A stretch of DNA of 64,000 bases from Escherichia coli (lineage in GTDB: Bacteria > Pseudomonadota > Gammaproteobacteria > Enterobacterales > Enterobacteriaceae). The translations under genes and the position numbers were made by a program. Where the stretch lies: the NCBI RefSeq assembly GCF_036507355.1, contig NZ_AP027877.1. One strand, 5' to 3'. This document shows, one piece after another, positions 56,259 through 56,535 of the stretch. Position 1 is the first letter of the stretch. Each line of letters starts with the position of its first letter. The notes beneath the pieces are model-generated. The model was not told the DNA's origin and made no database searches. It saw nothing but the letters and a program-made list of their open reading frames with translations.

Positions 56259-56535
56259 TGCTTTTACTCTAAATAATTCAAGTTGCAGGAAGGCGGCAAG
56301 CGAGTGACAAATTCGTCAGGAACGAATTTGCCCAGCCGCAGGCTGGCCTTCGGTGAGAGACATGGATGTCTCTCATTAATCCCCAGGAGCTTACATAAGT
56401 AAGTGACTGGGGTGAGCGAACGCAGGTACAGCACATGCAACTTGAAGTATGACGAGTATAACTGGCGCTACGGCTGATGGCGCCAATTATTCATTGCCAC
56501 GTCATCTGTAAGCGATTATTCATAACGCAGACAAC
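56259..56535. other. Hairpin-rich non-coding segment between panC and the RpnS-like ORF (candidate structured RNA / long 3' region)
   Basis: No ORF of 60 aa or more; hairpins CCAGCC-GCA-GGCTGG (56332..56346), TGAGAGACA-TGGA-TGTCTCTCA (56354..56375), TGGCGC...GCGCCA (56463..56485); 11-bp inverted repeat TTCAAGTTGCA (56277..56287) / TGCAACTTGAA (56436..56446). Confidence 0.4.

What the first reader, a model, noticed from the sequence alone, without database searches (positions are those of the whole stretch)
56259..56535. Hairpin-rich ~280-bp non-coding segment downstream of panC and the RpnS-like ORF
No credible ORF, but several perfect stems (6-bp CCAGCC/GGCTGG, 9-bp TGAGAGACA/TGTCTCTCA, 6-bp TGGCGC/GCGCCA) and an 11-bp inverted repeat bracketing ~150 bp. 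It lies in the 3' regions of both convergent genes, so it could be a structured 3' UTR, a small RNA, or the decayed remainder of a larger duplicated element. An 11-bp inverted repeat alone is not statistically compelling in 64 kb.
Basis: seen in the sequence. Interest (0 to 1): 0.4.

Follow-up and report, generated by a model that had tools for sequence, protein, structure and literature searches.

The report
ERIC repeat element downstream of panC
The hairpin-rich stretch is a copy of ERIC, a long-known small mobile repeat of enteric bacteria, lodged between the panC gene and its terminator and carrying a 71-base structured insert; the ERIC copy is ordinary, but the insert belongs to a wider family of mini-insertions that I could not find described.

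Summary
Window 56263-56460 (198 bp) aligns end to end with the published 127-nt ERIC/IRU consensus (88-91% identity) plus one 71-nt internal insert (56307-56377). Two of the perfect stems lie inside the insert. The TGGCGC/GCGCCA stem is the native panC terminator-like hairpin, which K-12 also has.

K-12 and most E. coli have an empty site (TAATACT-TA-ACTGG). Filled alleles show a TA target duplication. The element sits 4 nt after the panC stop and before the terminator, so it should be transcribed as panC 3' UTR. No Rfam family reaches threshold, and the segment holds no promoter-like site. It is not a remnant of the neighbouring rpnC duplication.

The insert was the unexpected part. It is a conserved three-hairpin module with strong covariation. 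It occurs at two fixed ERIC sites across Enterobacterales and is present or absent as a discrete unit within one E. coli ERIC. It also occurs outside ERIC: in T-loops of tRNA-derived fragments, in frame at hsdM/hsdS junctions, and in Rhs genes. It almost always follows "GA". ERIC insertions were reported in 1997; I could not establish whether the wider distribution has been described.

The parts
55407..56258 (+). panC (pantoate--beta-alanine ligase); its stop codon TAA is at 56256-56258, 4 nt before the element
   Evidence: ORF list; annotated as panC in homologous E. coli loci
56263..56460 (+). ERIC/IRU element, long form, 198 bp including the terminal TA dinucleotides. The left TA is mutated to TT in this window (56263-64); the right TA is at 56459-60.
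   Evidence: End-to-end alignment with the published 127-nt consensus: 112/127 identical to E. coli RU-1 and 116/127 to Salmonella SeRU-1, with one 71-nt gap (consensus taken from PMC2759123). The ERIC2 primer matches exactly at 56397-56418 (primer sequences confirmed in 233 papers). K-12 has an empty site and filled alleles show a TA duplication.
56262..56287 (.). Left terminal inverted repeat of ERIC; pairs with 56436-56461.
   Evidence: the repeat finder I1: 26 nt, 81% complementary, 148 nt apart
56307..56377 (+). 71-nt nested insert ("module") at the left internal ERIC site, after GAGTGA and before ATCCCC. H1 is 56308-16/56322-30, H2 is 56332-37/56341-46, H3 is 56354-63/56366-75. A weak 2-3-bp hairpin lies around 56346-54.
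   Evidence: It is the gap against the consensus. It folds alone as three hairpins, -32 kcal/mol, z = -4.6. Homologous inserts occupy the same site in 20 long ERICs from 9 genera. Covariation: 97.5% of cells paired, 10 of 21 pairs with compensatory changes, score 0.446 against 0.141 in shuffles. The covariance model hits 56300-56387 at 89.8 bits.
56381..56412 (.). Central ERIC hairpin (CCCCAGGAGCTTAC / GTAAGTGACTGGGG), the region on which the ERIC-PCR primers are based
   Evidence: the repeat finder I2; primer matches
56436..56461 (.). Right terminal inverted repeat of ERIC
   Evidence: I1
56458..56500 (+). Native terminator-like hairpin of the panC-rpnC spacer (ATAACTGGCGC...GCGCCAATTAT) with tail ATTATTCATT. 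It is not part of ERIC.
   Evidence: The terminator scan finds 56463-56485 plus a T-rich tail on the + strand. The hairpin is conserved in K-12, which lacks the ERIC. Its fold is only modestly better than shuffles (z = -1.9 and -2.5).
56501..56535 (.). Rest of the native spacer. It has an 11-nt indel relative to K-12, and its last ~14 nt begin the diverged copy of the rpnC 3' region.
   Evidence: Alignment A1; self-comparison
56536..56751 (-). 71-aa ORF, a diverged copy of the RpnC C-terminus. It is context only, not part of the element.
   Evidence: 57% identity to RpnC residues 235-301; DNA copy 56522-56719 against 56806-57003 is 76% identical
56820..57728 (-). rpnC (recombination-promoting nuclease), convergent with panC
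   Evidence: ORF list; annotation of homologous loci

Best explanation
[quoted passage not shown] ERIC is a non-autonomous miniature inverted-repeat transposable element. This copy inserted at a TA dinucleotide 4 nt downstream of the panC stop codon, upstream of the pre-existing panC terminator-like hairpin. It is the long form: the 127-bp ERIC is interrupted at its left internal site by a 71-nt nested module that folds into three hairpins.

Shown: the identity, the boundaries, the TA duplication, the empty/filled polymorphism, the multicopy nature, and the nested module with its covariation.

Inferred: because the element lies between the stop codon and the terminator, it is transcribed as part of the panC 3' UTR and forms a long branched hairpin. 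By analogy with Yersinia ERICs, that hairpin could change panC mRNA decay through RNase E or 3' exonuclease access. The most likely biological status is a selfish or neutral insertion with at most a modulatory effect on panC mRNA, not a dedicated regulatory RNA gene.

The ERIC most likely arrived with the module already inside it. The module itself behaves as a separate, DNA-level insertion element that lands just 3' of a GA. How it is mobilised is unknown. Single-strand, hairpin-guided (HuH/Y1, IS200/IS605-like) transposition is the best-fitting known mechanism, and this is only an inference.
For: - **Identity:** the element aligns end to end with the published 127-nt consensus at 88-91% identity, with a single 71-nt gap. 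The ERIC2 primer matches exactly. A second, short ERIC lies in the window at about 13620-13740, between rpsB and tsf.
- **Multicopy:** the ERIC without its insert matches 5425 of 5426 complete E. coli genomes, median 12 places per genome. Published counts are 19-21 in E. coli (PMC2267715).
- **Insertion with TA duplication:** K-12 reads TAATACT-TA-ACTGGCGC. O157 and EH10-18-47 read TAATACT-TA-[TACTC...GAGTA]-TA-ACTGGCGC. The same holds at yeiS-preT. The literature gives TIRs, TA termini and TA duplication as ERIC properties (PMC2229807; PMC3184786; PMC2759123).
- **Position in the 3' UTR:** a terminator-like hairpin at 56463-85, conserved in K-12, lies downstream of the element.
- **Effect on mRNA stability:** shown for Yersinia ERICs and orientation-dependent, as summarised in PMC2229807, PMC3184786 and PMC10969869.
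- **Arrival of ERIC and module together:** the panC locus shows only empty or ERIC+module alleles. A deletion derivative of the same ERIC+module lies at ybfA in strain GN25.
- **Module as a discrete unit:** the yeiS-preT locus has empty, ERIC-only and ERIC+module alleles with 99% identical flanks and a 78-nt net indel.
- **Module structure and flanks:** 120 unique copies give 2360 Watson-Crick cells against 31 mismatches. The 5' flank ends in GA in 93 of 114 copies. No target duplication is visible.
- **Module outside ERIC:** it occurs in several other contexts, and in both orientations relative to tRNA fragments.
Against: - There are no transcript data, so transcription through the element and any effect on panC mRNA are inferred.
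- The ERIC effect on mRNA was shown in Yersinia, is orientation-dependent, and I could not read the primary paper to say which orientation this copy has.
- Long-ERIC orientation relative to neighbouring ORFs shows no bias by a heuristic ORF reading: 2 sense and 3 antisense between co-directional genes. This gives no support for a strand-specific RNA role.
- For the module, no cognate transposase or autonomous parent element was found.
- The GA target is very short.
- G.U pairs on the top strand are concentrated in a single base pair (56 of 71), so strand-specific evidence is thin.
- Precise loss from an ancestral longer ERIC cannot be formally excluded without a phylogeny.
Confidence: 0.85

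Rival explanations
1. The segment encodes an independent small regulatory RNA, transcribed from its own promoter on one strand.
For: Very stable predicted structure on both strands. Weak sub-threshold Rfam hits to sRNA families: V_AS5 at 30 bits, Ysr49 at 16, CssrA at 15. These families were probably themselves built on ERIC-containing transcripts.
Against: No sigma-70-like promoter lies within 56259-56535 on either strand. Every Rfam hit is far below its gathering score. The sequence is a dispersed repeat with about 12 copies per genome. It is absent from this locus in most E. coli, including K-12.
Confidence: 0.04
2. The segment is the decayed remainder of the larger duplication that produced the 71-aa RpnS-like ORF next to it.
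For: A diverged second copy of the rpnC 3' end (56522-56719 against 56806-57003, 76% identity) directly abuts the segment.
Against: The homology starts only at about 56522. Strains with a single rpnC and no duplication carry the same 277-bp segment at 98% identity. The segment's content is fully accounted for by ERIC plus the native K-12-type spacer.
Confidence: 0.02
3. The ERIC copy has been domesticated as a cis-acting regulator of panC (or of convergent rpnC) expression. Its hairpins are kept by selection for that role.
For: It lies in the panC 3' UTR. Yersinia ERICs alter the stability of flanking mRNA. The insert is at least 99% identical in 452 of 615 E. coli genomes that carry it.
Against: About 89% of complete E. 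coli genomes lack the element at this locus. High identity among carriers is expected from recent common ancestry. Covariation is a property of the whole repeat family, not of this locus.
Confidence: 0.1
4. The 71-nt module is not an insertion. It is part of an ancestral, longer ERIC, and the 127-bp form arose by precise internal deletions (reductive evolution).
For: Long forms with one or two modules occur in many genera. ERICs are known to undergo internal deletions: the GN25 copy, and the Sharp & Leach 1996 title cited in PMC3696847. A paper titled 'Reductive divergence of ERIC' exists (cited in PMC10969869).
Against: The same module occurs outside any ERIC: in tRNA-fragment T-loops, at hsdM/hsdS junctions, in Rhs genes, in tandem arrays, and in antisense orientation to tRNA fragments. 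At yeiS-preT the module-free allele matches the canonical consensus GAGCGAACGCAG, and the indel boundaries carry no useful direct repeat.
Confidence: 0.1
5. The module is a functional RNA motif, for example a processing or protein-binding signal or an intron-like element removed from transcripts, and not a DNA-level mobile element.
For: Strong covariation in three helices. One helix-closing pair alternates G-C (58 copies) and G-T (56 copies), which fits pairing on the top strand only. In divergent Rhs genes the module occupies the same codon position; reading through it meets a stop, and removing it restores the reading frame.
Against: G.U pairs are otherwise very rare (15 of about 2300 cells on the top strand against 9 on the bottom), unlike typical structured RNAs. 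Copies occur antisense to tRNA fragments and in intergenic DNA of either orientation. At hsdM/hsdS all 8 copies are a multiple of 3 long and open, as expected if the module is translated and not removed. No Rfam family matches.
Confidence: 0.12

Closest known systems
ERIC / IRU / RU-1 (Sharples & Lloyd 1990; Hulton et al. 1991; Wilson & Sharp 2006)
   Same: 88-91% identity over the whole 127-nt consensus. Imperfect palindrome with terminal inverted repeats. TA at both termini and a TA target duplication. Intergenic position just 3' of a gene. Multicopy in E. coli. Empty/filled polymorphism between strains.
   Different: It carries a 71-nt internal insert, and the left TA is mutated to TT in this window. 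This locus is not occupied in K-12.
Insertions of about 70 bp within ERIC (Cromie, Collins & Leach 1997; Sharp 1997, Mol Microbiol 24:1311-1315). I could confirm only that the references exist; the content is from memory.
   Same: An insert of about 70 bp at a specific internal ERIC site that folds well. Here I found two sites (after GAGTGA and after GAGCGA), with the insert always in the same orientation.
   Different: I could not read these papers. I do not know whether they report the covariation, the presence/absence polymorphism, or the occurrence outside ERIC that I found.
Correia/NEMIS elements of Neisseria and RUP of pneumococcus (other bacterial MITEs)
   Same: Size of 100-200 bp, TIRs, TA duplication, co-transcription with neighbouring genes, and hairpin RNA that affects mRNA processing (PMC2229807).
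   Different: No sequence relationship. Correia RNA is cut by RNase III; RNase E is proposed for ERIC.
Rickettsia palindromic elements (RPE)
   Same: This comparison is for the module only. RPEs are small palindromic inserts found both in intergenic DNA and in frame inside protein genes and RNA genes (PMC2229807). The module is in frame in HsdS and sits in tRNA-derived fragments.
   Different: Different bacteria, no sequence similarity tested, and RPEs are about twice as long.
IS200/IS605-family derived miniature elements (HuH Y1 transposase, single-strand transposition)
   Same: This comparison is for the module only. No visible target duplication, a hairpin at each end, insertion immediately 3' of a short motif (GA), a fixed orientation relative to that motif, and tandem copies.
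   Different: No transposase or full-length parent was found. H1 starts at the very first base of the module, whereas IS608 has a spacer between the cleavage site and the hairpin. A 2-nt target is shorter than the 4-5 nt typical of the family. All of this rests on my own knowledge of the family.
REP/BIME elements
   Same: Short palindromic intergenic repeats of enterobacteria located in 3' UTRs.
   Different: Unrelated sequence. REPs are single hairpins of about 35 nt with a GTAG head. The published RU-3/BIME sequence does not resemble the segment.

Membership tests
ERIC / IRU | Sequence similarity to the 127-bp consensus over its whole length | tested here: met
   112/127 (E. coli RU-1) and 116/127 (Salmonella SeRU-1) identical, end to end, with one 71-nt gap. 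ERIC2 primer exact; ERIC1R with 2 mismatches.
ERIC / IRU | Imperfect palindrome with terminal inverted repeats and a central hairpin | tested here: met
   26-nt arms 81% complementary and a 14-nt central inverted repeat. Predicted long hairpin, z = -8.6.
ERIC / IRU | TA at both termini and duplication of a TA target | tested here: met
   K-12 empty site TAATACT-TA-ACTGG against filled TA-[TACTC...GAGTA]-TA. The same pattern holds at yeiS-preT. In this window the left TA reads TT.
ERIC / IRU | Multiple dispersed copies in enterobacterial genomes, in intergenic regions | tested here: met
   Median 12 places per genome in 5425 of 5426 E. coli. A second copy lies in the window between rpsB and tsf.
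ERIC / IRU | Located in a transcribed region and co-transcribed with the neighbouring gene | tested here: inconclusive
   It lies between the panC stop codon and a conserved terminator-like hairpin. No expression data are available.
ERIC / IRU | Orientation-dependent effect on stability of the flanking mRNA (RNase E), as in Yersinia | not testable with these tools
   Known only from reviews. The primary paper is not held.
Long ERIC with internal insertion | An insert of about 70 bp at a specific internal site, homologous between copies | tested here: met
   A 71-nt insert after GAGTGA. Homologous inserts occupy the same site in 20 loci from 9 genera, and a second site lies after GAGCGA.
Curated small RNA or cis-regulatory RNA family (Rfam 15) | Score at or above the family's gathering threshold | tested here: not met
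   Best hit V_AS5, 30.2 bits against 96; all others are 19 bits or less. No family covers the module in non-ERIC contexts.
Intrinsic terminator (56458-56500 only) | G+C-rich hairpin followed by a T-rich run on the transcribed strand | tested here: met
   The consensus scan finds 56463-56485 with tail ATTATTCATT on the + strand. The hairpin is conserved in K-12. The tail is only moderately T-rich and the fold z is about -2.
IS200/IS605-type miniature element (module only) | No target duplication; insertion 3' of a fixed short motif; terminal hairpins | tested here: inconclusive
   The 5' flank ends in GA in 93 of 114 copies. No duplication is seen. H1 and H3 sit at the two ends. A 2-nt motif is weak evidence.
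IS200/IS605-type miniature element (module only) | A full-length element with the same ends that encodes a Y1 transposase | not tested
   The pattern tools cannot span a gap of 0.5-2 kb. In E. coli the H1 sequence occurs only inside the module.

The most novel reading that the evidence does not exclude
The 71-nt insert is one member of a widespread family of 69-78-nt three-hairpin mini-insertion elements, and I found no description of that family. It is absent from Rfam and Pfam. As far as I can tell, the literature knows it only as "insertions within ERIC". The module lands immediately 3' of GA without duplicating its target. It has colonised structured DNA of several kinds: two fixed sites in ERIC, T-loops of tRNA-derived fragments downstream of tRNA genes, the hsdM/hsdS junction (always in frame), and a fixed codon of Rhs genes. 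It also forms tandem arrays. It has been gained or lost as a unit within E. coli at yeiS-preT. It would then be a distinct class of nested, structure- or GA-targeting mobile element whose mobilising enzyme is unknown.
Probability: 0.3. Interest if true: 0.55.

Novelty: already known. Interest (0 to 1): 0.22.

Why it matters
For the window, it removes a candidate. The hairpins are a textbook dispersed repeat, not a new sRNA or riboswitch, and the locus is a clean example of an ERIC insertion with a preserved empty site in K-12. It predicts that panC mRNA in O157:H7-type strains carries about 200 extra structured nucleotides in its 3' UTR. This could be tested against K-12 as a natural control for ERIC effects on mRNA decay in E. 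coli.

The nested module is the part worth remembering. If its wider distribution is indeed undescribed, it offers a tractable case, with present and absent alleles inside one species, for asking how very small structured elements move. It also raises the question of why they choose ERIC, tRNA T-loops, hsdS and Rhs.

Tried and rejected
- **Rfam.** A scan at a permissive E-value over 55900-57100 and over nine non-ERIC module loci found only sub-threshold hits, plus genuine tRNAs.
- **Promoter scan.** No promoter-like site inside the segment.
- **Primary literature.** Wilson & Sharp 2006 and De Gregorio 2005 are not held. Searches for text on the ~70-bp ERIC insertions found only reference-list entries. 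A search for ERIC with panC found nothing relevant.
- **Orientation of long ERICs relative to neighbouring ORFs.** Heuristic, and it showed no bias.
- **G.U strand asymmetry.** Essentially one informative pair, so it does not decide between RNA-level and DNA-level selection.
- **ERIC-only allele at panC.** None was seen.
- **Pfam on the module-encoded HsdS N-terminus.** No family.
- **Similarity to the RU-3/BIME repeat.** None.
- **Translational bypass or splicing of the module in Rhs.** I considered both by eye. There are no matching take-off and landing codons and no known intron boundary motifs. I left this unresolved.

Full report
**Locus.** The window carries panB (54601-55395, +) and panC (55407-56258, +). 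Next come the 277-bp segment in question, a 71-aa ORF on the minus strand (56536-56751), rpnC (56820-57728, -) and panD (58002-58382, +). The same gene order is annotated in E. coli genomes. The panBC DNA is at most 99.1% identical to any of 5426 complete E. coli genomes, and 90-95% identical to most of them. The source is therefore an E. coli-like genome with a minority haplotype at this locus.

**Observation.** The 11-bp bracketing repeat extends to 26 nt at 81% (56262-87/56436-61). Predicted folding is far better than for dinucleotide shuffles on both strands: z = -7.95 and -8.08 for 237 nt, and z = -8.6 for the 198-nt element. Only short ORFs of 31-58 aa overlap the segment.

**What it is.**
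- The segment matches 5425 of 5426 E. coli genomes, at a median of five places per genome by megablast. Only 407 genomes hold most of it at one place. So part of it is a dispersed repeat.
- The standard ERIC-PCR primer ERIC2 matches exactly at 56397-56418, and the complement of ERIC1R matches with two mismatches just before it. The primer sequences occur together in 233 papers.
- The published 127-nt consensus sequences of ERIC/RU-1 (PMC2759123) align with window 56263-56460 from first to last base. Identity is 112/127 for E. coli and 116/127 for Salmonella, with a single 71-nt gap at 56307-56377.
- With the insert removed, the element matches a median of 12 places per E. coli genome. This agrees with published counts of about 20 (PMC2267715).
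- A second, short ERIC lies in the window between rpsB and tsf, at about 13620-13740 on the minus strand.

**Insertion site.** K-12 has a 73-bp panC-rpnC spacer reading TAATACT-TA-ACTGGCGC.... Filled alleles (O157:H7 TW14359, EH10-18-47) read TAATACT-TA-[TACTCTAAAT...GACGAGTA]-TA-ACTGGCGC. That is a 2-bp TA duplication around an element whose own ends are TA. Reviews describe exactly this for ERIC. In this window the left TA has mutated to TT. The remainder of the segment (56461-56535) is the native spacer. It includes the hairpin ATAACTGGCGC/GCGCCAATTAT with a T-rich tail, which a consensus scan calls terminator-like on the panC strand and which K-12 shares. The ERIC therefore sits 4 nt after the panC stop codon and before the likely terminator. 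It should be transcribed as panC 3' UTR; this is inferred, not shown. No promoter-like site lies in the segment. No Rfam family reaches its threshold; the best hit, V_AS5 at 30 bits against 96, aligns only to the ERIC arms.

**Population.** The 71-nt insert occurs once per genome in 615 of 5426 E. coli, at this locus, including O157:H7 and O55:H7. At panC I saw only empty or ERIC+insert alleles, and none with ERIC alone. Strain GN25 has, upstream of ybfA, a TA-flanked copy with the same left arm and first insert hairpin, followed by an internal deletion. Together these indicate that the long ERIC moved as a unit. The adjacent second copy of the rpnC 3' end (56522-56719 against 56806-57003, 76% identity; protein 57% identical) is absent from all 5426 complete genomes. 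It overlaps the segment by only about 14 nt. The segment is therefore not a remnant of that duplication.

**The insert in ERICs.**
- A scan of one genome per species, for ERIC left arm and centre separated by an extra 56-86 nt, found 20 long ERICs. They come from Serratia, Pluralibacter, Buttiauxella, Escherichia sp. E1V33 (the same panC locus), Enterobacter, Leminorella, Yersinia, Citrobacter and Klebsiella.
- All carry a homologous 68-74-nt insert at the same site. Three also carry a paralogous insert in the right arm after GGGGTGARCGA, in the same orientation. Right-site-only copies exist too.
- In E. coli, right-site copies lie at queA-acpH, yeiS-preT and the ybtP-ybtA spacer of a plasmid-borne yersiniabactin locus.
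- An alignment of 21 inserts (A3) gives a consensus of four helices. 97.5% of cells are paired. Ten of 21 pairs show compensatory double changes. The covariation score is 0.446, against 0.141 in column shuffles (0 of 500 reach it) and at most 0.082 when partners are slid.

**The insert is a discrete unit.** At yeiS-preT, E. coli strains show three alleles with 99% identical flanks: empty, canonical ERIC with its TA duplication, and the same ERIC with a net 78-nt insert after GAGCGA. The module-free allele has the canonical GAGCGAACGCAG.

**The insert is not confined to ERIC.** Of the 81 matches I classified, 36 have no ERIC centre nearby. A covariance model built from A3 found 127 copies, 120 of them unique, in the loci held. 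The contexts are:
- T-loops of tRNA-derived 3' fragments that follow genuine tRNA genes (GGTTCGA^module^ATCC...CCA).
- One case antisense to tRNA-Met fragments; it uses the palindromic TCGA on the other strand.
- A D-loop-like site and a plain hairpin loop.
- The hsdM stop / hsdS start overlap. In 8 of 8 cases the module (75 or 78 nt, once a tandem pair) is in frame and open into HsdS.
- A fixed position in Rhs genes just before the T-G-L-H-Y-N motif. Reading through meets a stop after about 22 codons, and removing the module restores the frame. I worked this out by eye.
- Tandem arrays of two or three modules.

The base pairs are almost all Watson-Crick: 2360 cells, with 31 mismatches, 71 G.T on the top strand (56 of them in one pair) and 9 on the bottom strand. 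The 5' flank ends in GA in 93 of 114 copies, and no target duplication is visible. Rfam and Pfam have nothing for the module.

**Mechanism.**
- For the ERIC, identity, boundaries, TA duplication, empty site and copy number are shown. Transcription as panC 3' UTR, and a possible influence on mRNA decay by analogy with Yersinia (reviews), are inferred. I rate a neutral or selfish insertion with at most a modest effect on panC as most likely. About 89% of E. coli genomes lack the element at this locus.
- For the module, several features point to DNA-level insertion: occurrence in both orientations relative to tRNA fragments, translation in frame in HsdS, the presence/absence allele, and the scarcity of G.U pairs. 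The fixed orientation at both ERIC sites follows simply from GA motifs existing only on the ERIC top strand.
- Terminal hairpins, absence of duplication, insertion 3' of a short motif and tandem copies resemble HuH/Y1 single-strand transposition. I found no transposase, however, and the target is only two bases, so this is a hypothesis.

**Comparison with the known, and novelty.** The segment meets every testable defining feature of ERIC and of the long ERIC form. [quoted passage not shown] The statement that they describe ~70-bp insertions at specific internal sites comes from my memory of later citations. The finding as given is therefore already known and ordinary. I could not establish whether the literature records the occurrence of the insert outside ERIC, its covariation, and its polymorphism within E. 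coli. That uncertainty is the basis of the novel case.

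Noticed in passing
window 13620-13740 (- strand): A second, canonical short ERIC copy without the 71-nt insert, between rpsB (ending ...EESFVEAE*) and tsf. It aligns with the 127-nt consensus, and its right end is degraded.
   Followed up: partly
window 56522-56819: A diverged second copy of the rpnC 3' end (76% DNA identity to 56806-57003). It gives a free-standing 71-aa ORF, 57% identical to the RpnC C-terminus. None of 5426 complete E. coli genomes, nor Escherichia sp. E1V33, has this arrangement. It looks like a junction of two divergent rpnC haplotypes and not a recent tandem duplication.
   Followed up: partly
window 54601-56258: panB-panC is at most 99.1% identical to any complete E. 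coli genome and only 90-95% identical to 4250 of them. The locus therefore exists as deeply divergent haplotypes within the species.
   Followed up: no
L004 (E. coli O157:H7 TW14359) about 1965-1985: The O157:H7 copy of this ERIC has a 7-bp tandem duplication (CAAGTTG) in the left terminal repeat and extra indels in the spacer. This is why it does not cover the whole query in megablast.
   Followed up: partly
L005 (E. coli GN25) 1458-1566, upstream of ybfA: A TA-flanked ERIC with the same left arm and first insert hairpin as the panC copy, then an internal deletion (..CAGTCGCAG|CACATGCAAC..). It is a second locus of the same long-ERIC lineage.
   Followed up: partly
L027, L149, L150 (E. coli yeiS-preT spacer): Three alleles occur in one species: empty site, canonical ERIC with TA duplication, and the same ERIC plus a net 78-nt module in the right arm. 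Flanks are 99% identical.
   Followed up: yes
L032, L038, L058, L072, L080, L092, L093, L097 (metagenome contigs): The module sits exactly at the ATGA stop/start overlap of hsdM and hsdS. It is always 75 or 78 nt (once a tandem pair) and always in frame. It encodes MTNLSGTNLNNG.AVGPQGEGR.SPS ahead of the usual HsdS N-terminus. Pfam has no match for this peptide.
   Followed up: partly
L039, L053, L095, L121, L122 (three copies in one contig): The module interrupts Rhs genes at one fixed position, between ..QGQY.D.(D/E) and TGLHYN..RYYDP. Reading through meets a stop, and removing the module restores the frame. It is unclear whether these genes are dead, are orphan cassettes, or are rescued in some way.
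   Followed up: partly
L044, L045, L049, L077, L134, L051, L029, L071, L125: Downstream of genuine tRNA genes (Gln, Tyr, Ser, Met) lie repeated units. Each consists of a terminator and a tRNA 3'-end fragment, or a foldback minihelix (..GGATGAGAACCnnnnGGTTCGA^ATCC..CCA), with one to three modules inserted in the T-loop after TCGA. In L125 the module is antisense to the tRNA fragment.
   Followed up: partly
L028 (E. coli plasmid pH222-1) 1100-1330: A long ERIC with a right-site module lies in the ybtP-ybtA spacer of a plasmid-borne yersiniabactin locus, that is, in a promoter region.
   Followed up: no
window 56262-56456: The Rfam families V_AS5 (Vibrio), Ysr49 (Yersinia) and CssrA (Shigella) give weak hits confined to the ERIC arms. 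This suggests those sRNA families were defined on ERIC-containing transcripts.
   Followed up: no
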